Below, piece by piece: positions 4,199-43,306 of a stretch of 64,000 bases of DNA. Source of the stretch: Candidatus Poseidoniales archaeon (GTDB taxonomy: Archaea > Thermoplasmatota > Poseidoniia > Poseidoniales > Poseidoniaceae). Below the pieces are notes generated by a model that saw only the letters and a list, made by a program, of their open reading frames with translations, was not told where the DNA came from and searched no databases. The stretch lies in NCBI GenBank assembly GCA_038144595.1, contig JAYQOB010000003.1, forward strand, positions 1,949-65,948. The letters run 5' to 3'. The position numbers were made by a program, and so were the translations under genes. Position 1 is the first letter of the stretch. Every line of letters begins with the position of its first letter.

Positions 4199-7100
4199 TC
4201 ACTCCCCCTTCAGCACGCTGGCCAAGTCAGCCTTCAGCGCCCGACGTGTGGTCACCAACAACGCCACCACAACGGCTGCAAAGACCGCCAGGGACACCAG
4301 AATGATCTGGGCCCACGGGTAGACGAGCGTCCGCTGGATGGTGGTGGTGGAGCCACCGAAGATTTGGAAGATAAAGCCGAAGATGTCGAAGAAGCCGTTG
4401 AACGACAAGGCGAGTCCCACACCGAGCACGATGCCCAGCACCATGGAGACCATCACGATGGAGAGGATCTCAAACAGCACGAGGCGAATGATTTGGTTGG
4501 GTGAGGCCCCGATGGCTTGCAGCACCGCGAGTTCCTTTTGCCGCTGGCTGAGCACGAGGGACAAGAACACGAAGCTCGAGGCGACCGCCGCCACGCTGGC
4601 GACGACAAACTGCAGCGAAAGCAGACCTGGCGTCCCGAAAATCAGTCCGCCGTTGCGTTCCACGTCCTTGTGGGTGCTCGACCAGTCGACCACGGAGGAG
4701 ACCCGTGCATCGGCCGAGACCTGAGAGGCGAGCGATTCGAGGGCGTCGCCTTCCACGCCATCGACGCGAACAATCCATGTCGTTGAGGTGTAGTTGGCCG
4801 CTGCATCGGCGCCGACGAGGGAAACCCAGGCGTCCTCACCGATGATGAGGGCCGAGGAGATGGTGGCTGCACTCACGCCCGGGATGTACTCGTGGGTGCC
4901 CATGTAGTACATGCTCGTGGTGTAGGGCGTGACGACGATGCGAACGGTCGTGTCGGCCAAGAAGAGGTCCGATGCGAGCGGCGGCGGGATTTGGGAGGGA
5001 CCGGACACACAGCCGGTTTCGTCCGCCGAGGAGCCGTCAGGGCACGTGGCGTTGGTCAGCGTGGCACCGGACAGGTCGAAGAAGCCGAACATGCCTTCGA
5101 GGTTGGCGTCGGTCAGGTCGGCGCCTTCCAGCGTCCCGCCCATGAAGTTCACGAGCACGGTGTTTTGCAGGTTCGCCCCTCGCAGGTCAGCGCCCGTCAG
5201 GTTGGCATCCACGAGAATGGATTCGCTCAGGTTCACGCCTGCCAAGTCGGCGTAGGACAGGTTGCTGCCCGAGAGGTCGATGCGGCTGATGTCGCGCCCC
5301 GAGAGGTCCTGGTTGGCCAGGTTGATGTCGGACCAGTCGCTGTCCATCAAGAGGGTGTAGGCGAAGAACAGCGTCTCCAAATCAGGCTGCTCGGTGCCGC
5401 CCGTGGCGAACTCAAAGTCGATCTTCTCCCACACGAAGGTGATGGTCTCGGACTTGTCGTCGCTGGCCTTGAGCAGCACGTCGTCGAGTTCGTTCTCGTC
5501 CCCGCCACGGTCGGAGCCCGGCAGGTCAAGGGAATAGGCAGCGTCGGGACCGGCGCTGAATCCACCGGCGGCGTAGGCGTTGAGCGTGGCGCCGATGTCT
5601 TCACCGGGCAAGGCTTGTTCGCTCCATTTGAGCACGTCGCCGTTACCGTCGAACAAGACGTAGGTCTGCAGCGCATCCCCGCCGTTTTGGTCGCTCAACG
5701 TCAACTCGGGCACGCTCGTGGCCACCGGCGTGGTCTTGGCGCTGGTGAACTCACCGAGCAAGGCCAACGCAGCGGCTTCGTCAATCGGTGTTTCAAGCGT
5801 GATTTGGAGGTCGGAACCGACCGTGGCGTCCACGGTCTTTTCGTCCACGAGCGTTCCCGGTGTAGCCCTGAACGGCGGCCAGGGTCACGATGGAGAGCGT
5901 CAAGAGCATGAGGACGGCGAGGCGGTTGACCGATGCGGCCGAGCCCGAACCCTTGAGGCCGCGCTTGACGTCCTTGAGCAGCGGCGTGCGGCCAAAGAGC
6001 ACCTGCATGATTTGCGGGCCTTTGGCACCGATGCGACCGAGCAGCAAGGCACCGCCGATCCACAGGGCAAAGGGCCCGAAGATGCCGATGAGGCCTTCAA
6101 TGAAGAAGTTGGAAACCAGACCGTCCTCGCTGCCGTTGGCCTCCAGCCACGTGTCGCCCACGGCGAGCATGCCGAACAGGAAGGCCAGCCAGTGGAGCCA
6201 GCGCTTGGGTTCGGCAGCGGCCGTGGTCTTGCGAACGCCCTCTTCGATTTCGAGTTCGATGAACTGGCGTGCACGGCTGCGACCGAAGAGAATCGCCAAC
6301 CCGAGGGTGGTGATGGCGGTGAACAGCGTGGAGCCGACGCTCAAGGTCGGGTTGACGTCGAAGTCGCCGGTTCGGAACTCCATGAACCCGACCGCCGACA
6401 GGACGACGGGCACGGCCAGCAGCGCCAGCAGGTAGCCGACGAGCCACGCCACCGAGGACATGACGAAGAGTTCCAGCAGGACCATGCTCTGCAAGCGCTG
6501 ACCGTCCGCACCGATGACCCGGTGAATGCTGACCTCCCGGCGACGTTGCTCGAGGGAGAGCACCAGCCCGTAAATCAGCACGGAAATGGAAAGGAAGACG
6601 ATGGGGATCATGATGATGTAATCGAAAATCTGAATCAACCCGAGGAAGATGTTCAGGAACAGAGTGGTCCCGCTGATGATGTCGGTGTAGTACAGCTCGA
6701 CCTCTTCGTCGGTGTAGGAACCGTCCTGCACCTGCGTGCCCAGGTTCTCGAGCCACTCGGCAGCATCGGCGGTTGAGGAGGTGGGCAGGGCCCCGCGGTC
6801 AATGGTGACGCCCAGGTACATGTGGTCGTAATCCATCAGGGTCGCTCGCTGGGCTTCTTCCATCACGGTCCACGTGGAGAAAATCGGGTTGAACGGCAGC
6901 GTGGGGTTGCCAAAGGGCCACGGTTCGTAGATGCCCATCACCGTCAAGTTTTCCACGGTCATTGACATACGGCAGTAGATCATCTCGTTGTTTTCCGGTG
7001 TGATTTCACCCGCACAGTTGTCCTCGTTCACCGTTCCCTCGAGCAGGGTGGATTCATCCACGACGTAAACGAAGGTCAGCGATTCGAGCACGTCGCCAAC

Positions 7101-35528: not shown

Positions 35529-37238
35529 TCACCAAGCGCCCACGAGGGCGTTGGCCGCCGACTCGCACAGCGCAATGAGTTGCCCGGCTCCGACACCGAA
35601 GTACACCGTCGTGATGAGACAGGCGATGATGGCAAAACGAACGGGCGTGCCCTTGGGCAGCGGACCTTCTCGGCCTTCTTCAGGTTCGTGGAAGTACATC
35701 ACGAGACCGACTCGGAGGTAGTAGAACACCGAGATGGCCGAGTTGATGACCATCAGGAGAGCGAGGTACCACACCCAGTGGATATCGCCGAAGGCCAGGT
35801 CGCTGTTGACGGTCACGTCAAGCAGGGCGACCTTGACAATGCCCATGATGACCAGCAACTTGGAAACGAAGCCGGACAGGGGTGGCACACCGGCCAGGGA
35901 CATCATGAAGATGAACATGGCCACGGCGAGGAACGGATCCCGCTTGGCCAGACCGCCAAGGGATTCCAGCGTGTGACCGCCCTTCTCCGACTCGAGGAGC
36001 GAAAGCACCAGGAACGCACCGAGCTTGAAACAGACGAGCACCGTGAGGTGGAAGATGAGGGCCGTGACAACAACGAGTGCTGCATCGTTGCTCATGTCGA
36101 TGTGGCCGTCCTCCCAGTTGAGCGCTCCAATGGCCGTGATGGCGGCCAACATGTAGCCGGCGTGAGCGACCGAGGAGTAGGCAAGCATGCGCTTGGGGTT
36201 GGTCGAGCCGAGCGCAGCGAGGTTGCCCCATGTCATCGTGATGACGGAGAGCGTGCCGAGGGCAACGAGCCAAACGGCCGAGCCGTCGGTCGCTTCGGGC
36301 GAAGCGACTACGAGGAGGATACGGAGCAAGCCGAGCACACCCATGGCCTTGCTGGCCGTGGCGAGTACACCGGCGACCGGGGCGGTGGCACCGGCGTAGG
36401 CATCAGGTGCTGCAAAGTGGAAGGGTGCAGCGCTGACCTTGAAGCCAAAGCCGACCAGAAGCATGCCCAGTGCAATGAGGGGCAGGGCTTCCATGCCGTT
36501 TTCAGCAAAGGCCACGGAGAGGTCCGTGAACTGAAGCGAGCCCGACCACAGGTAGAGCAGCGACAGGCCGTAGAGGCCAACACCAGAAGCCACGGAACCG
36601 ACGATGAAGTACTTCATACCGGCCTCGGTGCCTTCCTTGCTTTCCTTCATGAAGGAAACCAGCACGTAGGTCGAGAACGACGCCAACTCAAGCCCGATGA
36701 AGAGCATGAACAGGTCTTGGGCGAGCGCCACGACCGCCATGCCGAGCCCCGTCGTGATGAGCAGGATGTAGAAGTCAACCTGGCGTCGGTTGTTGTACAA
36801 GCCGTTGAGGCTGCGGTCGGCTCGGCTGGTCGCCGGGATGCGGTTCACTGAGGCGGCACTGGCCAAAGCGAGCGCACCGAAGAAAATCAACTCGAACATG
36901 CGACTGAACTCGTCGATCTGAAGCATCGTCGTGCCGCCTGGCGTGATGATTTGCGTCTTGTTCATGCCACCAAAGAAGGAGACGAGCGTCAACCCGAAGG
37001 CGATGGTGAAGAACACCGTTGCGAACAAACCGGGCAAACGAGGGTCGCTGTCGAGCTTGCCCCGCTGACCGCCGAGCAGCCATGGAACACGGATCTGGGT
37101 CAGTGGAATGCGGAACTTGGCGTTGCCCATGTTGGGGACGGTCATCAGCGTAAACAAGCCGATGACAAGCACAAATTCGGGAGCCAGGGCGAGGACAAAG
37201 CCTTCCTCAAAGGGTTCAATTCGCTCCATTTCAGGCAC
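35529..37238 (-). CDS. nuoN: NADH-quinone oxidoreductase (complex I-like) subunit N
   Basis: Antiporter-like polytopic protein. GFGFKVSAAPFHFAAPDAYAGATAPVAGVLATASKAMGVLGLLR and MLAYSSVAHAGYM. Last gene of the nuo operon; 569 aa. Confidence 0.85.
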   Translation of the reverse strand: MPEMERIEPFEEGFVLALAPEFVLVIGLFTLMTVPNMGNAKFRIPLTQIRVPWLLGGQRGKLDSDPRLPGLFATVFFTIAFGLTLVSFFGGMNKTQIITPGGTTMLQIDEFSRMFELIFFGALALASAASVNRIPATSRADRSLNGLYNNRRQVDFYILLITTGLGMAVVALAQDLFMLFIGLELASFSTYVLVSFMKESKEGTEAGMKYFIVGSVASGVGLYGLSLLYLWSGSLQFTDLSVAFAENGMEALPLIALGMLLVGFGFKVSAAPFHFAAPDAYAGATAPVAGVLATASKAMGVLGLLRILLVVASPEATDGSAVWLVALGTLSVITMTWGNLAALGSTNPKRMLAYSSVAHAGYMLAAITAIGALNWEDGHIDMSNDAALVVVTALIFHLTVLVCFKLGAFLVLSLLESEKGGHTLESLGGLAKRDPFLAVAMFIFMMSLAGVPPLSGFVSKLLVIMGIVKVALLDVTVNSDLAFGDIHWVWYLALLMVINSAISVFYYLRVGLVMYFHEPEEGREGPLPKGTPVRFAIIACLITTVYFGVGAGQLIALCESAANALVGAW

Positions 37239-38865
37239 CTCCCAAGATTGGAATCAAGAGCGTCTCAAAGAACGCCACCGTCCAGCCGTTCATCATGTCG
37301 AGCGCAATCCACGGCATGACACCAAAGAGGATGGTGAAGGCCGCCATGATGAGCATGGCCACCTTTTCGCTGTCGCTGATGTCGGGAACGGGTTGGCCCT
37401 TGAGGCTCTCCGGAGGTTGTGTTTCGTCGCCACCCTCGAAGATGGTGCGTTGCATCGACCACAGGTAGTAGGCGGCGGTGATGGCGAGCACGAACGCCGG
37501 GCCGACCATCCAGAGCACGCTCCAACCCTCGGCGGCCAAGAAGTGCCAGAGGGCGAGGAACATCATCAACTCAGCCACGAATCCAGCGAGCAGCGGAAGA
37601 CCGAGCGAGGCCATCCAACCGAACATCATCGAGGTCGCGAGCCATGGGGAGTGCTTGGCCATGCCCCGCATTGAACCAATCTCCATGCTGTGGTAGTGGT
37701 GCTTGAAGGCACCGCAGACAGCGAAGAGCATGGGGCTGATGATGCCGTGAGCGAACATCATGAACAGGGCAGCGGCCCAGCCGAGTGGCTGCATGGTGGC
37801 GATGCCGATGAGGATGACACCCATGTGGGACACCGAGGAATAGGCGACCATTTTCTTGAGGTTGGTTTGTCCCAGACACACGACGGCTCCCCAAACGAGG
37901 GAAACCATACCGAGGGCCAACAAGGCGAACTGGAAATGCTGAGCAGCGTGCGGGAAGAAGGCCAGCGGCAATCGGAACATACCGTAGGCACCCATCTTCA
38001 GCATGACACCCGCCAGCAGCATGGAACCGCCCGTGGGTGCCTGAACGTGAGCATCGGGCAGCCACGTGTGGAAGGGAACCGAGGGCAACTTCACGAGGAA
38101 CCCGATCATCAGCATGACGAAGAGAATCTTCTGCAGGCTCTCACCGAGGAACCAGGCGCCACCAGCGTTGGCCGATTGAGCGTGGGCTGTCAAGGTGGGG
38201 ATGTCAAAGGTGCGTCCCGTCCAAGCACCGGCGTAGGAGAGGTTTTCCGGCTGGAGGAAGTAGACGGTGACCAGACCCAAGAGCATGATGACCGAGGCCG
38301 TGAACGTGTAGATGAAGAACTTCTGAGAAGCGTACTTTCGGTCGTAGCCACCCCACTTGAGGATGAGGAAGAACATCGGAATCAAGGTCAGTTCCCAGAA
38401 CACGTAGAACATGAACAGGTCGAGGGCGACGAAGACACCGATGAGCGCACCACCCATCATCAAGACGAGCGGGAAGTATACGGCAGCGTTCTTTTCGTTC
38501 CACGTAGCGGCGATGGTCACCGGCAGGAGGAAGGTCGTCAGCCAGACCATCGGGAAGGACAGCGCATCCATGCCGACGCTCCAGTGAATGCCGAGGGGTT
38601 CAATCCATACGTAACGGAACTCGTAGTTGAAACTCCCAAAGGAAAGCGAGGCCCAGTCGATGGTTCCTTCAATGTACTCGCTGCCGAAGAACATGGCCGT
38701 CGTGAGGGTCAACATCAGCAACGAGAAGATGAGGGTCGCCATTCGGATGGACGGACCCATGCGCTCCCGAGCGGCAGGCGATGCGTAGGCCACAAAGGCC
38801 AGGATGGCAATGCTGCTGACGAGCGGCAAGGCGACGAGGGGAATGGAGATCCAGTCGGTCGTCAT
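37231..38865 (-). CDS. nuoM: NADH-quinone oxidoreductase subunit M
   Basis: LVKLPSVPFHTWLPDAHVQAPTGGSMLLAGVMLKMGAYGMFR and MVAYSSVSHMGVIL. ATG at 38865 overlaps the nuoL stop (ATGA); the tracked ORF extends to 38880. Confidence 0.88.
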   Translation of the reverse strand: MTTDWISIPLVALPLVSSIAILAFVAYASPAARERMGPSIRMATLIFSLLMLTLTTAMFFGSEYIEGTIDWASLSFGSFNYEFRYVWIEPLGIHWSVGMDALSFPMVWLTTFLLPVTIAATWNEKNAAVYFPLVLMMGGALIGVFVALDLFMFYVFWELTLIPMFFLILKWGGYDRKYASQKFFIYTFTASVIMLLGLVTVYFLQPENLSYAGAWTGRTFDIPTLTAHAQSANAGGAWFLGESLQKILFVMLMIGFLVKLPSVPFHTWLPDAHVQAPTGGSMLLAGVMLKMGAYGMFRLPLAFFPHAAQHFQFALLALGMVSLVWGAVVCLGQTNLKKMVAYSSVSHMGVILIGIATMQPLGWAAALFMMFAHGIISPMLFAVCGAFKHHYHSMEIGSMRGMAKHSPWLATSMMFGWMASLGLPLLAGFVAELMMFLALWHFLAAEGWSVLWMVGPAFVLAITAAYYLWSMQRTIFEGGDETQPPESLKGQPVPDISDSEKVAMLIMAAFTILFGVMPWIALDMMNGWTVAFFETLLIPILGGA

Positions 38866-41474
38866 GCGACCACCCCCCAAATCAAGGCGAAGAGGCCCAA
38901 GGTACCCAACGCCGCCATCAAGATGTAATCACGGGCGGAACCCGTGGTCAACGAGCGCAGTTTCGTTGAGAGTTGTTGCGAGGTGCGCTCGACCAGCTTG
39001 ACCGTGCCGTCAATCACACCGGAATCGGCTTCAGCGGCCTTGAACGAGAAGGCAGCGACGATCTTGAGCATGGCCATGTCGTAGTAGTGGTCGAAATACA
39101 AGCGGTTCTCGCGGGCGGTGGCGAAGCCGGATTGGCCGAAGGACGAATTGTCCCAGTGGTAGCGGCCCTTCACGAACTGGTTGAGGGCCAGGACCGGACC
39201 GAACCACGGCAGGGTGTTCTCGCCTTCGTCGAGTTTTCCACCGTAGAGGGAAAGGGCCAGGCCAGGGCCGACGATGGCACCGAGCAGAATGGCGATGTAG
39301 GTCAGCACGAAGAAGAACGAATCGCTGTTGGCAAAGGCGTGTGCCATCTCGTAGACGAAGCCTTCGAGGAAGCTCTTCTTGCCGTCAAAGAACGGCTTGT
39401 AGTACTCGTCGGGCGCCCAGTGGGTGAAGCCCATGCTGGCGAGCACAATCGCACTCAGGCTCATGAAGGTCAGGATGAACAGCGGCGTCTTGATCCACGT
39501 GTTGGTGGGATGAACGTGAGCCGCTACGTCGGTCTTGGGTGAACCGGCGAAGGTCTTGAGCCACATGCGGGACATGTAGAAGCCGGTCATGGCTGCGCCG
39601 AGCAACACGCACATGGCGGGGTAGAAGAAGCGAGGGTCGTCAAGGGCCACACGCCAGGTGTTGGCGATGATCCCTTCCTTGGACCAGAAGCCACCGATGA
39701 GCGGGAAGCCCATGATGGACAAGGAACCGACGAGCATGGCCGTGGCCGTCAGCGGCATCTTGGAGGCCAAACCACCCATGTTCTCCATGGATTGAGCGTC
39801 AAACTCGTCGTGGTGGTCGTGGTGGTCATCTCCTGCCAGCGAGGCGAGGTGAACACGACCGAGGGTCAGTTCCAACTCCGGGACGTTGATGCGTCCGTTG
39901 CCGTCCATGTCAACGGCCTTCATGAGCCGCTGCATGTCCCAGGGTGGGAGGTCGGCGATGTCGGCCTTCTTGAGCGCCGTTTGGAACTCGTAGGTGTCAA
40001 TTTCACCCGACTGGTCAAGGTCGATGGAATTGAAGAAACCGAAGACGGATTGCCCGCTGTCAGCCAAGTAGTTGGCGAGCATGAGGAGTTCCTCAGGGTC
40101 CTCGTCGTGATGGCCGTGGTCGTCGTCGTGGTGGTGGAGGTGATGGTGGGCGTGATGCACTTCGTGGATGACCGCACCGCTGGCCATGAAGAGCATCCCC
40201 TTGGCCATGGCGTGGTTGAACAGGTGGAAGAGCGCTGCACCAAAGGCCACGACGACGATGCCGTGGTTGACGTAGTAGTCGGGGTTCACCGTGCCGTCAG
40301 GGAGGTACTTGTGCCAGTAGAGCGTGTTGGCGAGGTAGAGCGCTGCACCCAGCCCGGTGAAGATGTAGGCGAGTTGGGACATCGTCGAGTAGGCGAGGAC
40401 CTTCTTGAGATCGTGCTGAACAAAGGCGATGGCCGCCGCCATGACCGCCGTGGTTCCGCCGATGGCGGCGATGATGAAGGCCAAGTCGGCCAACTCTCCG
40501 TGGAGCGCATCAGCACCGAAGAACGGGAACATGCGGGCCACGAGGTACAGACCAGCGTTGACCATCGTTGCGGCGTGGATGAGGGCCGAAACGGGCGTTG
40601 GCCCTTCCATGGCGTCGGGCAGCCAAACGTGGAGCGGGAACTGAGCGGACTTGCCCACCGCACCGATGAACATCAGGCCGAGCGCCCAAGCGAGCGTGCC
40701 CGAGTTGTTGGCGGCCACTTGCTCAATGTTGCCTTCGTAGAACACCACGGCGTAGTCGAGTGCACCTTGGTCGGCGCCGGCATAGGGGTGGAACAGCGAC
40801 CACAGGATGGCCAGACCGACCATGAGGAACACGTCGCCAACACGGGTGGTCAGGAAGGCCTTCTTGGCGGCGTAAGGAGCGCTGGGGCGTTCGTAGTAGA
40901 ACCCGATGAGCAGGTAGGAACACAGACCCATCAGCTCCCAGAAGATGAACAGCCAGAGGAACGAGTCAGCGAGCACCATACCGAGCATGCCCGAACAGAA
41001 CAGCACGAACTCAGCGTAGAAGCGGTGGTTGCGGTTGTCGTTGATGGGATCGGTGTTCATGTAACCGATGGCAAAGGTGTTGATGAGCAAGCACAGGAAG
41101 GATGCGATAAACAGCAGCATCACGGTGACGTGGTCGATGTACACACCGAACCCGAGTGAAATTTCAGTGACGGTGGTTTGCCCTGAATCCCACATCCCCG
41201 AGGTGAACCATGTCCACCCGTCGGTGTCGGCCGAGCCGTTCCCACCGATGAAATCGGTGATGAGCCACAGCGAGAGCAAGAGGCTTCCTGCCATGACCGG
41301 GAGGGCGATGAGACCACCTTCCTTGAGTGTGTTTTTCCACATGGAATTGCCGTTGAACATCTTGCCAAAGAAGAGGATGACCGGGAAGGCCAACATGGGG
41401 AGCAAGAGGATGTAAGGGGCGTATTCCAACGCCGTGCTTTGAATTGCTTCTGAACTGCCTGAACCTGCCATCAT
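38862..41474 (-). CDS. nuoL: NADH-quinone oxidoreductase subunit L carrying a roughly 120-aa His-rich / double EF-hand insertion
   Basis: FWELMGLCSYLLIGFYYERP...KKAFLTTRVGDVFLMVGL...GKSAQFPLHVWLPDAMEGPTPVSALIHAATMVNAGLYLVARM...VLAYSTMSQLAYIF...HAMAKGMLFMASGAVIHEVHH[insert]MENMGGLASKMP...GFPLIGGFWSKE. 870 aa. Confidence 0.9.
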   Translation of the reverse strand: MMAGSGSSEAIQSTALEYAPYILLLPMLAFPVILFFGKMFNGNSMWKNTLKEGGLIALPVMAGSLLLSLWLITDFIGGNGSADTDGWTWFTSGMWDSGQTTVTEISLGFGVYIDHVTVMLLFIASFLCLLINTFAIGYMNTDPINDNRNHRFYAEFVLFCSGMLGMVLADSFLWLFIFWELMGLCSYLLIGFYYERPSAPYAAKKAFLTTRVGDVFLMVGLAILWSLFHPYAGADQGALDYAVVFYEGNIEQVAANNSGTLAWALGLMFIGAVGKSAQFPLHVWLPDAMEGPTPVSALIHAATMVNAGLYLVARMFPFFGADALHGELADLAFIIAAIGGTTAVMAAAIAFVQHDLKKVLAYSTMSQLAYIFTGLGAALYLANTLYWHKYLPDGTVNPDYYVNHGIVVVAFGAALFHLFNHAMAKGMLFMASGAVIHEVHHAHHHLHHHDDDHGHHDEDPEELLMLANYLADSGQSVFGFFNSIDLDQSGEIDTYEFQTALKKADIADLPPWDMQRLMKAVDMDGNGRINVPELELTLGRVHLASLAGDDHHDHHDEFDAQSMENMGGLASKMPLTATAMLVGSLSIMGFPLIGGFWSKEGIIANTWRVALDDPRFFYPAMCVLLGAAMTGFYMSRMWLKTFAGSPKTDVAAHVHPTNTWIKTPLFILTFMSLSAIVLASMGFTHWAPDEYYKPFFDGKKSFLEGFVYEMAHAFANSDSFFFVLTYIAILLGAIVGPGLALSLYGGKLDEGENTLPWFGPVLALNQFVKGRYHWDNSSFGQSGFATARENRLYFDHYYDMAMLKIVAAFSFKAAEADSGVIDGTVKLVERTSQQLSTKLRSLTTGSARDYILMAALGTLGLFALIWGVVA

Positions 41475-41480
41475 CTCACC

Positions 41481-41783
41481 TCAGTTCTTCAGGACGTTGA
41501 CGTCGTCCAGCGTAATCGATTCGTGTTGGCCGTACATGGCAAGGAAGATGGCCAAACCGATGGCCACTTCCGATGCAGCGATGGCGATGGCGAAGATGGT
41601 GTAGACCCATCCCGTCGTATCGCCGTGGTGCACGGCAGCGGCAGCGAATTGCATGTTGGCGGCGTTGAGCATCAACTCAATGCACATCAGAACGATGATT
41701 GCGTTCTTTCGAGTGAACGCTCCGGCCAAGCCGATGACGAACAGAAGGGCTGACAAACCGGACACCCATGCTGGATCGATCAT
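41481..41783 (-). CDS. nuoK: NADH-quinone oxidoreductase subunit K
   Basis: 100 aa, 3 TM. MCIELMLNAANMQFAA...AIAASEVAIGLAIFLAMY. Confidence 0.88.
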   Translation of the reverse strand: MIDPAWVSGLSALLFVIGLAGAFTRKNAIIVLMCIELMLNAANMQFAAAAVHHGDTTGWVYTIFAIAIAASEVAIGLAIFLAMYGQHESITLDDVNVLKN

Positions 41784-42049
41784 TCTTCTTCACCTCCGAA
41801 CTCCCAGAGAAGGTTCTCCATTCGCTCATCACGAACGAGGTAGGCAGCGCCCATCATGGCCATGGCCATGAGCAAGCCCAGGACGAGAAGAGCGAAGCCC
41901 CACTCGGACAGAAGTGAATCAGCCAAGCCAGCGGTCGTGGGCGTGGTCGTGGCCGGGTCGGCCCACACGCTTTCGTCGTTGAGCACAGCGACGAGAATGA
42001 AGCCGAGGGCCAACAAGCCAAGACGGGTGAACAACGAGGTGAACTTCAT
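41780..42049 (-). CDS. nuoJ: NADH-quinone oxidoreductase subunit J, C-terminal half (J2)
   Basis: 89 aa. GFALLVLGLLMAMAMMGAAYLVRDE corresponds to the last NuoJ helix. ATGA overlaps occur on both sides (41780-41783, 42046-42049). Confidence 0.7.
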   Translation of the reverse strand: MKFTSLFTRLGLLALGFILVAVLNDESVWADPATTTPTTAGLADSLLSEWGFALLVLGLLMAMAMMGAAYLVRDERMENLLWEFGGEEE

Positions 42050-42330
42050 TCGAAGTCCTCCTCGAGAATTTGACGTCGAGTCAGCATGATGCCGAACAGC
42101 ACCACCAACCCTACACTGGCCAAGTAAACCAGAATCTGGATGGCAGCCAAGAATTCAGCACCCAAGAGGATGAAAATTCCGGAGACGGCCATGAAACAGA
42201 AGATCAGCGAGAGCATCGAGTGCGCCACACGCTGAGCAAAGATGAGACCAAGCGCTCCACCGAGCGTGATGGCTGCGAACAGGAAGAACACACCGGTTTC
42301 GGCAGCGCTGGCCACGTCCATCTCAGGCAT
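42046..42330 (-). CDS. nuoJ: NADH-quinone oxidoreductase subunit J, N-terminal half (J1)
   Basis: From ATG 42330 (or 42321): M(PEM)DVASAAETGVFFLFAAITLGGALGLIFAQRVAHSMLSLIFCFMAVSGIFILLGAEFLAAIQILVYLASVGLVVLFGIML. The upstream part of the tracked ORF overlaps nuoI. Confidence 0.75.
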   Translation of the reverse strand: MPEMDVASAAETGVFFLFAAITLGGALGLIFAQRVAHSMLSLIFCFMAVSGIFILLGAEFLAAIQILVYLASVGLVVLFGIMLTRRQILEEDFE

Positions 42331-43306
42331 CCCCCTTGGCGGCCTCGGCAGCGGCCTTGGCCGCCTTCTTGGCGCGCTTGTCGCGTTCCTTGGAGGCGCG
42401 CTTGGCCAACTCGGCGTCAACGGCTTCCTGGTGGACGCCGGGCAGAACGCGAGTACGAGAGGCGTCAAACCACAGGTCTTGGCGGGTAAAGCCGGACATG
42501 CCGTCGTATTCGTTGGTCATGAAGAACGAGGTGAAGCCGCACGCTTCCATGCACAGGCCGCAGAACATGCAGCGGCCGAGGTCGATGCGCCCGGAGACGA
42601 TTTGGTCGTCGGCGGGGTAGAGTTCCGACGTCGAAACAACAGCCTCTTCACCCGAATCGTTCCAGCGAACGGTGGCCGACTCACCTGAGAGGTCGAGCAC
42701 TTCAGCAAAGCGCCATTCCTCGGGCGGTGCCGTGTGGGCCGTGACGTGGTTGAAGGTGTCCAAGCCGGCCACCACTTCAGGTACTTCGACGGCGGCAAAC
42801 TTGCCGACTTCAAGTTCAGCACCAAAGCCTGCATGCTCGCCCTCAGCGTTGTCGAGCACGTCAACACGCAGCTCGGTCGTCATGTGGAGGCAGTCGTTGG
42901 GGCAGATGTTCACGCACATCTTGCACGCCGTACAGGTCTCCCAAATGACGCCGATTCGCCCGTTGTAGTTCCCTGGCACGAACAGCCAAGGCTCCATGTC
43001 CTCGAGACGTTCGTAGGGGTACTGCACCGTCTGAGGCTTCCAGAGCGTTGGTTTGAGGTCGGAGGTCACACGGTCGGGGGCGAATTCCTGACGGGTGATG
43101 TCGTTCATCTCGGCCGAAGAAGCGGCACGAGTGCGACTTCCGTCGTCGAGGAATTCGGGGTGGGAGGTGTTGTGGTAGGCACCGAGGCGCTTTCCGAAAC
43201 GCTTACCGATGAACGGGAAGGTGCGCAGGGCCGTGATCAGCGTGATCTTGAACGGGTACCAAAACAGGTTTCGGAAGTTGGGCTGTGCGTGTGGATGCAT
43301 GGGCAT
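42323..43306 (-). CDS. nuoI: NADH-quinone oxidoreductase subunit I (2x[4Fe-4S] ferredoxin) with an N-terminal extension, an inter-cluster insertion and a Lys/Ala-rich tail
   Basis: CTACKMCVNICPNDC and CMFCGLCMEACG cluster motifs are separated by about 110 aa (canonical NuoI has about 35). 327 aa in total. Confidence 0.85.
   Translation of the reverse strand: MPMHPHAQPNFRNLFWYPFKITLITALRTFPFIGKRFGKRLGAYHNTSHPEFLDDGSRTRAASSAEMNDITRQEFAPDRVTSDLKPTLWKPQTVQYPYERLEDMEPWLFVPGNYNGRIGVIWETCTACKMCVNICPNDCLHMTTELRVDVLDNAEGEHAGFGAELEVGKFAAVEVPEVVAGLDTFNHVTAHTAPPEEWRFAEVLDLSGESATVRWNDSGEEAVVSTSELYPADDQIVSGRIDLGRCMFCGLCMEACGFTSFFMTNEYDGMSGFTRQDLWFDASRTRVLPGVHQEAVDAELAKRASKERDKRAKKAAKAAAEAAKGDA

What the first reader, a model, noticed from the sequence alone, without database searches (positions are those of the whole stretch)
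39789..40154. Canonical EF-hand pair flanked by His-rich stretches inserted into NuoL
Canonical NuoL has a short loop (...GSVIHAMHHEQDIRKMGGL...). Here about 120 residues are inserted between GAVIHEVHH and MENMGGL:
- a His/Asp-rich run (AHHHLHHHDDDHGHHDEDPEE);
- two 12-residue EF loops, DLDQSGEIDTYE (nt 39987-40022) and DMDGNGRINVPE (nt 39876-39911), each followed by a hydrophobic residue;
- a second His-rich run (GDDHHDHHDEFD).
Both loops satisfy the PROSITE EF-hand pattern as I recall it. A Ca2+- or metal-sensing module embedded in an antiporter-like subunit of a respiratory complex is, to my knowledge, undescribed. It would imply direct divalent-cation regulation of proton pumping.
Basis: partly seen in the sequence, partly recalled or inferred. 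Interest (0 to 1): 0.7.

Follow-up and report, generated by a model that had tools for sequence, protein, structure and literature searches.

The report
Calcium-binding EF-hand module inside archaeal NuoL
The proton-pumping subunit NuoL of the complex I-like enzyme of an abundant ocean archaeon (Marine Group II) carries a conserved calcium-binding domain on its cytoplasmic side. The same domain is also built into the ATP synthase stator and other membrane proteins of these archaea, so calcium may act directly on their energy machinery, though no binding or regulation has been measured.

Summary
The 870-aa NuoL (window 38862-41474, minus strand) has about 120 extra residues between TM11 and TM12. 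They comprise an invariant His run, a conserved helix, two canonical EF-hands and a second His/Asp tract.

- **Motif and fold:** Both loops fit PROSITE PS00018. Pfam EF-hand models score above their cut-offs. The module alone folds at pLDDT 92 and matches centrin, calmodulin and parvalbumin.
- **Not an artefact:** It occurs in more than 85 protein clusters, 49 reference genomes and 20 sequencing runs, including a metatranscriptome. Its dN/dS is about 0.06, close to the membrane core.
- **Location:** Topology places it in the cytoplasm.
- **Evolution:** On the NuoL tree it looks ancestral to Poseidoniales. One MGIIa clade lost it but kept the His/Asp loop.

The new point is that this is one copy of a Poseidoniales-specific cassette. 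Copies 40-65% identical sit in A-type ATP synthase subunit I (also His-flanked), on the C-terminus of NuoJ2 in MGIIb, and on an unassigned membrane protein with a SAP domain.

Calcium binding is very likely. Calcium control of proton pumping is inferred only, and a docking role is a serious rival. I found no publication describing it.

The parts
38862..41474 (-). nuoL: 870-aa antiporter-like subunit L of the complex I-like enzyme, carrying the insert
   Evidence: Pfam Proton_antipo_M 1.5e-57 and Proton_antipo_N. NCBIfam TIGR01974 NDH_I_L scores 411.6 against a cut-off of 407.5. The AF2 model matches NdhF/NuoL/ND5 chains with TMt 0.69-0.78.
40167..40277 (-). TM11 (aa 400-436), with the invariant central-axis residues H417, H421 and K425
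   Evidence: AF2 helix 400-448. These columns are invariant in 39 sequences. They align to Nqo12 313-343.
40098..40166 (-). N-terminal His/Asp tract (aa 437-459, HEVHHAHHHLHHHDDDHGHHDED). The first part is invariant across MGIIa and MGIIb; the second is a variable low-complexity linker.
   Evidence: H437, H440, H441, A442, H443, H445 and H447 are invariant. dN/dS is about 0.046. pLDDT is below 50 for aa 448-458. The tract is retained in the EF-less clade.
40056..40097 (-). Helix 0 of the cassette (aa 460-473, PEELLMLANYLAD)
   Evidence: Helix 7-19 of the cassette model, pLDDT about 96. L9 and L16 are invariant in 44 cassettes from all host proteins.
39966..40046 (-). EF-hand 1 (aa 477-503), with the Ca2+ loop DLDQSGEIDTYE at nt 39987-40022
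   Evidence: PS00018 match. Pfam EF-hand_1. Loop positions 1 (D), 6 (G) and 12 (E) are identical in 226 of 226 cassettes.
39837..39944 (-). EF-hand 2 (aa 511-546), with the Ca2+ loop DMDGNGRINVPE at nt 39876-39911. It is preceded by the conserved linker DLPPW.
   Evidence: PS00018 match. Positions 1 (D) and 12 (E) are identical in 226 of 226 cassettes, and G6 in 224 of 226. A beta bridge at loop position 8 appears in the model.
39789..39836 (-). C-terminal His/Asp tract (aa 547-562, AGDDHHDHHDEFDAQS), rejoining the native motif ..DAQSMENMGGL
   Evidence: F558, D559 and Q561 are invariant. dN/dS is about 0.034. pLDDT is below 50 for aa 547-556.
39639..39755 (-). TM12, the broken helix (aa 574-612), with the terminal proton-loading Lys K599 (nt 39678-39680)
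   Evidence: AF2 helices 574-587 and 602-612. The motif GGFWSKEG is invariant. It aligns to Nqo12 from residue 347 onward.
41481..41783 (-). nuoK (100 aa), the upstream neighbour
   Evidence: ORF. Pfam Oxidored_q2 on the syntenic gene in L002-L007.
41780..42049 (-). nuoJ2 (89 aa, the C-terminal half of a split NuoJ). It carries no cassette here; in MGIIb this gene carries the same EF-hand cassette at its C-terminus.
   Evidence: ORF. The MGIIb homologue P0150 (345 aa) sits in the nuoJ2 position of L006 and L007. About 52 clusters have this form.
37231..38880 (-). nuoM (549 aa), the downstream neighbour
   Evidence: ORF. The syntenic Proton_antipo_M genes appear in L002-L005.

Best explanation
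The insert is a functional cytoplasmic Ca2+-binding domain. It is a compact five-helix unit (helix 0 plus two canonical EF-hands, like one lobe of calmodulin or centrin). His/Asp-rich tethers splice it into the TM11-TM12 loop of NuoL.

It is one copy of a cassette specific to Poseidoniales (Marine Group II). The cassette was grafted once each onto several membrane proteins:
- NuoL;
- the C-terminus of NuoJ2 (in MGIIb);
- the hinge of A-type ATP synthase stator subunit I;
- an unassigned polytopic protein with a SAP domain.

**Shown here:**
- the EF-hand motif and fold;
- complete conservation of the Ca2+-ligand positions;
- strong purifying selection;
- cytoplasmic placement;
- presence across MGIIa and MGIIb, with one secondary loss;
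- presence in contigs of a run filed as metatranscriptomic (weak support for transcription).

**Inferred mechanism:** The cassette acts as a built-in Ca2+ switch. In seawater (about 10 mM Ca2+), cytoplasmic Ca2+ stays low only while ion gradients are maintained. A rise in cytoplasmic Ca2+ would load the EF-hands and change how helix 0 and the EF pair pack. That change would pass through the TM11 helical extension (the invariant His run) to TM11 and TM12, which carry H417, H421, K425 and the terminal proton-loading K599. Proton translocation would be tuned as a result, and in parallel the ATP synthase.

The His/Asp tracts occur only on the two ion-translocating hosts. They probably add a second input (Zn2+, Ni2+ or H+ binding) or act as a proton-buffering surface.
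For: **EF-hand identity**
- Both loops match PS00018.
- Pfam EF-hand_1 scores 40.0 against 25.4, and EF-hand_7 scores 39.7 against 30.
- The cassette model has pLDDT 91.8 and pTM 0.82, with helix-loop-helix twice and beta bridges between the loops.
- Foldseek matches centrin, calcyphosine (TM 0.70, rmsd 1.7 A), parvalbumin and calmodulin at probability 1.0.

**Constraint**
- Loop positions 1 (D) and 12 (E) are identical in 226 of 226 cassettes. G6 is identical in 226 and 224 of 226.
- MGIIb NuoL copies are only 21-29% identical overall but still match PS00018.
- dN/dS is 0.06 for the cassette, 0.039 for the TM core and 0.087 for the C-terminal third.
- All listed read variants inside the insert lie at third codon positions.

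**Reality**
- Independent assemblies from NCBI, JGI, ENA and Logan carry it.
- It is in 49 NuoL loci of reference genomes.
- Twenty runs hold it, and metatranscriptome contigs cross both junctions.

**Cytoplasmic side**
- The insertion point maps to the Nqo12 343/347 loop after TM11.
- NuoL helix count and the established N-terminus-outside topology place that loop inside.
- K+R counts are 8 in 84 residues for predicted inside loops and 1 in 154 for outside loops.
- In subunit I the same cassette sits at the end of the cytoplasmic N-domain, just before TM1.
- On NuoJ2 it follows the positively charged tail ..VRDER. In the fourth host it precedes a SAP domain.

**One cassette family**
- Cassette copies score above 65 bits, against about 20-27 bits per domain for generic EF-hands.
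- tblastn identities to the window over 83-85 residues are 64% (SAP-domain family, P0138), 56% (P0145) and 51% (ATP synthase subunit I).
- The 88-residue alignment across hosts has no gaps.
- Subunit I cassettes form one clade (100/99) and NuoJ2 cassettes another (99/96).

**His tracts**
- His counts in the 30-aa N- and C-flanks are 11.2 and 3.2 for NuoL and 7.3 and 2.5 for subunit I. They are 1 or fewer for the other hosts.
Against: - No Ca2+ binding or Ca2+ effect has been measured.
- The segments joining the cassette to TM11 and TM12 are low-confidence (pLDDT below 50), variable in length and low in complexity. This weakens direct mechanical coupling.
- An entire MGIIa clade does without the EF pair in a fully syntenic operon, so it is dispensable for complex I function.
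- The cassette sits at mechanistically unrelated positions on different hosts, including plain C-terminal tails. That fits a generic docking or sensor tag better than a gate specific to the NuoL proton path.
- EF-hand-bearing NDH-2 enzymes show that such a motif does not always confer Ca2+ activation (PMC6134880).
- I could not show that the NuoL and subunit I cassettes occur in one genome. Whole-genome tools were shut. Among the 80 best reference-genome loci, no genome had both.
Confidence: 0.5

Rival explanations
1. The cassette is a docking or assembly tag rather than a gate. It would be a protein-protein interaction domain, Ca2+-dependent or always Ca2+-loaded. It would recruit one common soluble partner, or make cassette-bearing complexes bind each other (complex I, ATP synthase, the SAP-domain membrane protein). 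This would organise the energy-converting machinery into patches or supercomplexes, possibly tethered to nucleic acid through the SAP and helix-hairpin-helix domains.
For: - The same cassette sits on at least four unrelated hosts, as an internal loop, a hinge or a C-terminal tail.
- Its tethers are flexible.
- Non-ligand features are conserved across all hosts: helix 0 (L9, L12, L16) and the inter-EF linker LPPW (P56 and P57 invariant in 13 sequences, P57 at least 90% in 44).
- Tails with SAP, or with a coiled coil plus a helix-hairpin-helix domain, follow the cassette on two hosts.
- Eight reference genomes carry both the subunit I copy and the SAP-family copy.
- MGIIb complex I carries two copies, on NuoL and NuoJ2 in one operon (locus tags CMB31_03745 and CMB31_03755).
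Against: - No partner has been identified.
- Conservation of helix 0 and LPPW may simply reflect the fold's core.
- This reading does not explain why His/Asp tracts accompany the cassette only on the two ion-translocating subunits.
Confidence: 0.3
2. The primary functional element is the His/Asp-rich loop. It would serve as a transition-metal (Zn2+, Ni2+, Cu2+) binding or sensing site, or as a proton-collecting and buffering antenna at the cytoplasmic face. The EF-hand pair would be a later structural add-on of minor consequence.
For: - The His run HEVHHAHHHLHHH is invariant across MGIIa and MGIIb.
- The EF-less clade keeps a 42-46-aa loop with 15-16 His.
- His-rich flanks occur only on NuoL and subunit I.
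- From established knowledge: His/carboxylate clusters serve as proton antennae and Zn2+-inhibition sites at proton entrances of oxidases and reaction centres, and His-rich cytosolic loops regulate CDF and ZIP transporters.
Against: - The EF cassette is itself under purifying selection as strong as the membrane core, with ligand positions conserved 100%.
- The cassette functions without His flanks on other hosts.
- This reading is therefore complementary to the main one, not a replacement for it.
Confidence: 0.12
3. The insert is an assembly chimera, or neutral junk in a tolerant loop.
For: The loop lies on the surface, at the tip of the membrane arm, where the loop is short in the aligned solved structures. 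The His/Asp linkers are low-complexity and vary in length.
Against: - It is present in hundreds of independent assemblies and 20 runs, with continuous contigs across both junctions.
- dN/dS is about 0.06.
- Canonical loops are retained at 21-29% overall identity.
Confidence: 0.01

Closest known systems
Canonical NuoL / Nqo12 / ND5 / NdhF (E. coli 3RKO and 7Z7S chain L; T. thermophilus 4HE8 chain L; cyanobacterial 6HUM chain F)
   Same: The fold matches (TMt 0.69-0.78). The Pfam and NCBIfam family assignments match. All key residues are present: Glu-TM5 E180, Lys-TM7 K275, His-TM8 H300, H417/H421/K425 in TM11 and Lys-TM12 K599. A long C-terminal lateral helix followed by TM16 is present. The operon position between nuoK and nuoM is the same.
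   Different: In the solved structures aligned here the TM11-TM12 loop is a few residues long. Here it holds about 120 extra residues: His/Asp tracts plus an EF-hand domain. None of the 35 solved homologues listed has an EF-hand in its molecule name, and the two alignments printed show a short loop there.
EF-hand insertion in A-type ATP synthase stator subunit I of Marine Group IIa archaea
   Same: It is the same cassette, 51% identical over 83 residues by tblastn, including helix 0, both loops and the LPPW/LPPL linker. It has the same His/Asp-rich flanks and even a ..HHD(D/E)..DAQ.. tail. It is also cytoplasmic and in an ion-translocating membrane subunit. It lies in a normal atp operon.
   Different: The host protein and position differ: the hinge between the soluble N-domain and TM1. 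Its cassettes form their own clade (100/99). In the truncated reference-genome list it was not seen in genomes labelled as genus Poseidonia.
Ca2+-dependent type II NAD(P)H dehydrogenases with an EF-hand insertion (plant NDB1, Neurospora NDE1)
   Same: A respiratory-chain dehydrogenase carries an inserted EF-hand motif, and Ca2+ activation has been proposed or measured for some members (PMC6134880).
   Different: These are single-subunit, non-pumping flavoenzymes of eukaryotic mitochondria with one motif facing the intermembrane space. Several have degenerate loops and show no Ca2+ response. Here the host is a pumping antiporter-like subunit of an archaeon, and the pair is fully canonical.
Ion-transport proteins with a built-in cytosolic EF-hand pair between transmembrane segments, e.g. 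plant two-pore channel TPC1 (my own knowledge, not tested here)
   Same: The architecture is the same: an EF-hand pair in a cytosolic linker that continues from a transmembrane helix of a polytopic ion-translocating protein. There, Ca2+ binding moves the adjoining helices.
   Different: The membrane fold and organism are unrelated. In TPC1 the coupling helix is rigid, whereas here the tethers are predicted to be flexible.
Calmodulin, centrin and parvalbumin lobes
   Same: The fold matches (Foldseek probability 1.0, rmsd 1.7-3 A over 67-88 columns). The loops are canonical DxDxS/NG..I/L..E loops.
   Different: Sequence identity is only 22-32%. An extra N-terminal helix 0 is conserved. The domain is covalently embedded in membrane proteins rather than being a free protein.

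Membership tests
NuoL / ND5 antiporter-like subunit of complex I (Mrp-type) | Proton_antipo_M and Proton_antipo_N domains; subunit-L-specific profile | tested here: met
   PF00361 at 1.5e-57 and PF00662 at 4.4e-09. TIGR01974 NDH_I_L scores 411.6 against a cut-off of 407.5. The equivalog NF005141 scores 444.5, below its cut-off of 556, because the insert splits the match.
NuoL / ND5 antiporter-like subunit of complex I (Mrp-type) | Conserved charged axis: Glu-TM5, Lys-TM7, His-TM8, His/His/Lys in TM11, Lys-TM12 | tested here: met
   E180, K275, H300, H417, H421 and K599 are invariant in 39 Poseidoniales sequences; K425 is conserved in at least 90%. Equivalence to E. coli E144, K229, H254, H334, H338, K342 and K399 rests on motif identity and my recollection of the E. 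coli numbering.
NuoL / ND5 antiporter-like subunit of complex I (Mrp-type) | 16-TM fold with two broken helices and a C-terminal lateral helix HL followed by TM16 | tested here: met
   The AF2 model (pLDDT 68.8) has helices 795-840 and 847-869. Foldseek gives TMt 0.69-0.78 to NdhF/NuoL/ND5 chains. The HL region is low-confidence.
NuoL / ND5 antiporter-like subunit of complex I (Mrp-type) | Gene position between nuoK and nuoM in a nuo operon | tested here: met
   Window ORFs. Syntenic loci L002-L007 have Pfam-labelled neighbours.
EF-hand superfamily (paired, calmodulin-like) | 12-residue loop with ligands at positions 1, 3, 5, 9 and 12, Gly at 6 and a hydrophobic residue at 8 (PROSITE PS00018) | tested here: met
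   Both loops match. Positions 1, 6 and 12 are invariant or nearly so in 226 cassettes.
EF-hand superfamily (paired, calmodulin-like) | Profile match above the curated threshold | tested here: met
   On the insert alone: EF-hand_1 40.0 against 25.4, EF-hand_7 39.7 against 30, EF-hand_5 37.8 against 25.9, EF-hand_6 34.8 against 25.
EF-hand superfamily (paired, calmodulin-like) | Helix-loop-helix twice, paired through a short beta bridge between the loops; fold similar to solved EF-hand proteins | tested here: met
   Cassette model at pLDDT 91.8, with DSSP helices 23-30/40-49 and 57-67/77-96 and an E at loop position 8 in both loops. Foldseek hits to centrin, calcyphosine, parvalbumin and calmodulin have probability 1.0 but E-values of only 3e-3 to 2e-2.
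EF-hand superfamily (paired, calmodulin-like) | Measured Ca2+ binding and a Ca2+-induced conformational change (sensor class) | not testable with these tools
   This needs ITC, 45Ca overlay, and CD or ANS measurements on the recombinant insert.
Dockerin type I (EF-hand-like Ca2+ loops used for docking) | Pfam Dockerin_1 above threshold; duplicated 22-residue segments lacking the E helix | tested here: not met
   PF00404 scores 19.7 bits against a cut-off of 22.9, with no stretch passing on its own. The model has complete E and F helices.

The most novel reading that the evidence does not exclude
Poseidoniales, among the most abundant archaea of the surface ocean, may have evolved their own Ca2+-signalling layer wired directly into chemiosmosis. 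One EF-hand cassette is built into complex I (NuoL, and NuoJ2 in MGIIb), the ATP synthase stator and at least one further membrane protein. Cytoplasmic Ca2+ reports the state of the ion gradients against 10 mM external Ca2+. It would then switch proton pumping and ATP synthesis or hydrolysis in a coordinated way, or cluster these complexes into Ca2+-dependent supercomplexes.
Probability: 0.2. Interest if true: 0.88.

Novelty: new variant of a known kind. Interest (0 to 1): 0.68.

Why it matters
As far as I know and as far as the literature searches reached, complex I and rotary ATP synthases of prokaryotes are not reported to carry built-in second-messenger sensors. Ca2+ signalling in archaea is almost unexplored.

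Here a textbook EF-hand domain is under strong selection inside the distal proton-pumping subunit. A paralogous copy sits in the ATP synthase stator of related Poseidoniales. This is a concrete, testable handle on both questions, in a globally abundant but uncultured lineage.

The isolated 90-125-aa module can be expressed and assayed without culturing the organism. The loop can also be transplanted into E. coli NuoL.

The natural clade that lost the EF pair, and the MGIIb lineage with two cassettes per complex, provide built-in comparisons.

Tried and rejected
- Whole-genome tools (genome search, the fetch from genomes) were shut. A per-genome census of cassette hosts, and a check of this genome's own atpI, were therefore impossible.
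- The search for related loci with the 44-sequence cassette alignment failed because no stretch was conserved enough. A 13-sequence alignment worked.

**Hypotheses rejected**
- That EF-less NuoL lineages carry the cassette on NuoJ2 instead. Their operons (L002-L005) have a normal 89-aa NuoJ2. The NuoJ2 cassette is an MGIIb feature, and it co-occurs with a NuoL cassette.
- Dockerin: below the Pfam cut-off, and complete EF-hands in the model.
- Chimera or junk.
- Extracellular location (and the subunit I, NuoJ2 and SAP contexts).
- Two low-support joints in read contigs (skipping 969 and 73 nt; shorter side 27-29 nt; the 73-nt skip is not a multiple of 3). I judged these to be cross-matches from other organisms or from the repetitive CAC/GAC tracts.

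**Attempts that gave no answer**
- Showing NuoL-EF and subunit-I-EF in one genome. Contig look-ups returned only unlabelled metagenome contigs. A run search seeded with a single-cell genome's atpI found only metagenomes.
- Assigning the roughly 560-aa membrane domain of the SAP-domain host. There was no Pfam, NCBIfam or PDB sequence match, and the neighbouring genes were uninformative.


Full report
**What is there**

The minus-strand ORF at 38862-41474 encodes an 870-aa protein. It is a NuoL by several tests:
- Pfam Proton_antipo_M (1.5e-57) and Proton_antipo_N.
- NCBIfam NDH_I_L at 411.6 bits against a cut-off of 407.5.
- Best sequence matches to NdhF, Nqo12, NuoL and ND5 chains of solved complex I structures.
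- An AlphaFold2 model (39-sequence alignment, mean pLDDT 68.8) that Foldseek matches to those chains at TMt 0.69-0.78.

It lies in an operon nuoA-B-C-D-H-I-J1-J2-K-L-M-N, as in syntenic contigs with Pfam-labelled genes. Sources name close homologues "Poseidonia sp." or Poseidoniales, so the organism is a Marine Group IIa archaeon.

Alignment to Thermus Nqo12 puts query 409-439 on Nqo12 313-343, and query 561 onward on Nqo12 347 onward. About 117-120 residues are therefore extra at the loop that follows TM11.

The insert has five parts:
- a His run that continues the TM11 helix (HEVHHAHHHLHHH) and then a variable Asp/His linker;
- a conserved helix (PEELLMLANYLAD);
- EF-hand 1, with loop DLDQSGEIDTYE;
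- a DLPPW linker and EF-hand 2, with loop DMDGNGRINVPE;
- a second His/Asp tract that rejoins the native motif DAQSMENMGGL.

Both loops match PROSITE PS00018. That pattern occurs only three times in the six-frame translation of the whole window. On the insert alone, Pfam EF-hand_1, _5, _6 and _7 all exceed their curated cut-offs.

**Not an artefact, and selected**

A search with residues 400-600 found more than 85 clusters of NuoL with the insert. They come from NCBI, JGI, ENA and Logan assemblies, at 71-100% identity for MGIIa and 45-51% for MGIIb. All but four of these sequences (mostly fragments or variants differing at a single pattern position) match PS00018 in both loops, including the distant MGIIb ones.

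Twenty runs from at least 11 studies hold the stretch. Contigs of four of them, including a run filed as metatranscriptomic, tile both junctions without indels. The listed variants inside the insert all fall at third codon positions.

Nei-Gojobori dN/dS over 41 NuoL genes was as follows. dS is about 1-1.4, so these values are approximate.

| Region | dN/dS |
|---|---|
| EF cassette | 0.060 |
| N-terminal His tract | 0.046 |
| C-terminal His tract | 0.034 |
| TM core | 0.039 |
| C-terminal third | 0.087 |

**Fold**

The cassette was modelled alone with 44 sequences from all hosts. The model has pLDDT 91.8 and pTM 0.82. It shows five helices and a beta bridge at loop position 8 of each loop.

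Foldseek against the PDB returns only EF-hand proteins at probability 1.0, with E-values of 3e-3 to 2e-2. They include centrin, calcyphosine (TM 0.70, rmsd 1.7 A), parvalbumin and oncomodulin, and calmodulin lobes.

In the full-length model the cassette scores about 70-76, but the two linkers fall below 50.

**Which side of the membrane**

Four lines agree on the cytoplasm.
1. By homology the insert follows TM11. In the established NuoL topology the N-terminus is outside, odd-numbered helices run outside to inside, and helix HL is cytoplasmic. The TM11-TM12 loop is therefore cytoplasmic. The helix count in the model agrees.
2. For TM1-TM11, predicted inside loops hold 8 K+R in 84 residues. Outside loops hold 1 in 154.
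3. The paralogous cassette in ATP synthase subunit I lies at the end of the cytoplasmic N-domain, just before TM1.
4. On NuoJ2 the cassette follows the positively charged C-terminal ..VRDER. In the fourth host it precedes a SAP domain.

**The wider finding: a shared cassette**

I searched the 89-aa core against 1.84 billion representative proteins. The result was bimodal. Generic multi-EF-hand proteins scored about 20-27 bits per domain. A distinct set scored above 65 bits at 43-91% identity.

That set comprises:
- **A-type ATP synthase subunit I.** Example P0187, 783 aa, cassette at about 300-425, Pfam V_ATPase_I. Its gene sits in a standard atp operon in L001, with subunits E, C, F, A, B and D downstream. 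All 120 clusters listed (of 303 found) carry an EF-hand Pfam domain.
- **NuoJ2 with a C-terminal cassette.** Examples P0150 and P0167, in the nuoJ2 slot of L006 and L007. About 52 clusters have this form, one of them named Thalassarchaeaceae.
- **An unassigned polytopic membrane protein of about 560 aa**, followed by the cassette and a SAP domain.
- **Two smaller proteins**, P0220 and P0238.

The alignment across hosts has no gaps over about 88 residues. In 226 cassettes, loop position 1 is always D and position 12 is always E in both loops. G6 is present in 226 and 224 of 226.

On the cassette tree, subunit I copies form one clade (100/99) and NuoJ2 copies another (99/96). MGIIa NuoL copies are nearly one clade, and MGIIb NuoL copies sit on a long separate branch. 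Each host therefore acquired its copy once and has kept it.

His-rich flanks are specific to the two ion-translocating hosts:

| Host | His in 30-aa N-flank | His in 30-aa C-flank |
|---|---|---|
| NuoL | 11.2 | 3.2 |
| ATP synthase subunit I | 7.3 | 2.5 |
| SAP-domain family | 1.0 | 0 |
| NuoJ2 | 0 | 0 |

**History in NuoL**

I built a tree from NuoL columns outside the insert. It separates MGIIb (all with the insert) from MGIIa. Inside MGIIa, the seven EF-less sequences (757-768 aa) form one clade (SH-aLRT 99). That clade is sister to an EF-bearing sequence (support 83), and one change of state suffices.

The EF-less proteins keep a 42-46-aa loop with 15-16 His, in which the two flanks are fused. 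Their operons are otherwise syntenic, with a normal 89-aa NuoJ2.

The most economical reading is that the His run and the cassette were present in the Poseidoniales ancestor, with a clean secondary loss of the cassette in one MGIIa clade. No outgroup NuoL was examined, so this polarity rests on parsimony alone.

In MGIIb, NuoL and NuoJ2 both carry a cassette in the same operon. This is seen in L007. It is also seen in one NCBI contig through locus tags CMB31_03745 and CMB31_03755.

**Distribution limits**

A scan of one genome per GTDB species found 331 cassette-encoding stretches. Only the best 80 were returned:

| Host gene | Loci | Labelled genus Poseidonia |
|---|---|---|
| NuoL | 49 | 21 |
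| Subunit I | 17 | 0 |
| SAP-domain family | 14 | 0 |

Eight genomes have both the subunit I and the SAP-family copies. None of the 80 loci pairs NuoL with subunit I in one genome. Because the list is truncated by similarity to the NuoL cassette, this neither shows nor excludes mutual exclusion. Whole-genome tools were shut.

**How it most likely works**

Shown: a cytoplasmic, canonical, strongly conserved EF-hand domain between TM11 and TM12. TM11 carries H417, H421 and K425. TM12 is the broken helix with K599.

Inferred: the domain binds Ca2+ and acts as a built-in sensor. Its state would pass to TM11 and TM12 through the helical His run, or would control interactions of the complex.

The logic is that cells living in 10 mM Ca2+ keep cytoplasmic Ca2+ low only while their ion gradients hold. 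Ca2+ would then be a natural read-out of energisation.

Several facts argue against a strict gating model:
- the tethers are flexible;
- one clade has lost the cassette;
- the cassette sits on plain C-terminal tails of other hosts.

A docking or assembly role is therefore a serious rival. The His/Asp tracts probably add metal or proton binding, and that function can stand alone, as the EF-less clade shows.

**Comparison with what is known**

Five full-text searches found nothing on EF-hands in NuoL or ATP synthase of these archaea. One comparative paper only notes MGIIa- and MGIIb-specific families with Ca2+-binding domains (PMC9258230).

The nearest functional precedent in respiration is the EF-hand-bearing type II NAD(P)H dehydrogenases of plants and fungi. 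Ca2+ activation holds for some of them and fails for members with degenerate loops (PMC6134880).

Earlier notes of this scan had independently flagged the subunit I insertion in other genomes. I re-derived that here and linked it to NuoL, NuoJ2 and the SAP-domain family.

**Verdict**

The feature is real, conserved and apparently undescribed. It is a NuoL and it contains a bona fide EF-hand domain. What is new is the combination and the cassette family.

| Claim | Probability |
|---|---|
| Ca2+ binding | about 0.85 |
| Cytoplasmic location | about 0.85 |
| Direct Ca2+ control of pumping | about 0.35 |

Noticed in passing
L001:10001-12352; P0187 and P0273-P0391: A-type ATP synthase stator subunit I of many Poseidoniales carries the same His-flanked EF-hand cassette at the hinge before TM1. 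The gene sits in a normal atp operon. All 120 clusters listed (of 303 found) carry an EF-hand Pfam domain.
   Followed up: yes
L006:3063-4100; L007:1059-2096 (P0150); P0393-P0442: In MGIIb (Thalassarchaeaceae), NuoJ2 is extended from 89 aa to about 198 aa (plus cassette) or 341-412 aa (plus an acidic/Lys-rich stretch, possibly coiled coil, and a helix-hairpin-helix domain). That C-terminal domain matches the C-terminal part of NCBIfam's NuoE profile PRK12373 (E 6e-20). NuoL in the same operon also has a divergent cassette.
   Followed up: partly
P0138, P0145, P0147, P0186, P0205, P0214; loci L058, L063, L065-L067, L070-L073, L075, L076, L079, L085, L086: This is a Poseidoniales protein of about 660-730 aa. 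It has a polytopic membrane domain of about 560 aa with no Pfam, NCBIfam or PDB sequence match, then an acidic linker, the EF-hand cassette and a C-terminal SAP domain. Its neighbours (radical SAM, Obg-like GTPase) give no clue to function.
   Followed up: partly
window 40262-40327 (NuoL aa 383-404): NuoL has a second, smaller insertion of about 23 aa (NTLYWHKYLPDGTVNPDYYVNH) in the extracellular TM10-TM11 loop. It is present in most MGIIa sequences, including some EF-less ones, and absent from MGIIb and a few MGIIa sequences.
   Followed up: no
window 42323-43306 (nuoI): NuoI is 327 aa here, against roughly 160-180 aa for a typical NuoI as I recall. It is 328-450 aa in related operons (L002-L005). 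Several subunits of this complex I-like enzyme therefore carry lineage-specific additions.
   Followed up: no
window 4931-4969 (+): This is the only other PS00018 match in the six-frame translation (DDDANGRVGQEEV). I did not check whether it lies in a real gene.
   Followed up: no
L034 (NZEQ01000031.1): A contig with a typical Poseidoniales nuo operon and the NuoL cassette (82% identical) is filed under a MAG named Verrucomicrobiales bacterium ARS100. This is probably a binning or labelling error.
   Followed up: no
L040 and L041 (PAWY01000041.1, PAWY01000011.1): One MAG (SAT1329) holds two different NuoL-cassette loci on two contigs. This suggests a mixed-strain bin rather than a gene duplication.
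   Followed up: no
P0156, P0202, P0259: These Poseidoniales-type proteins combine an N-terminal double zinc ribbon with EF-hand pairs. They add to an apparently enlarged EF-hand repertoire in this order.
   Followed up: no
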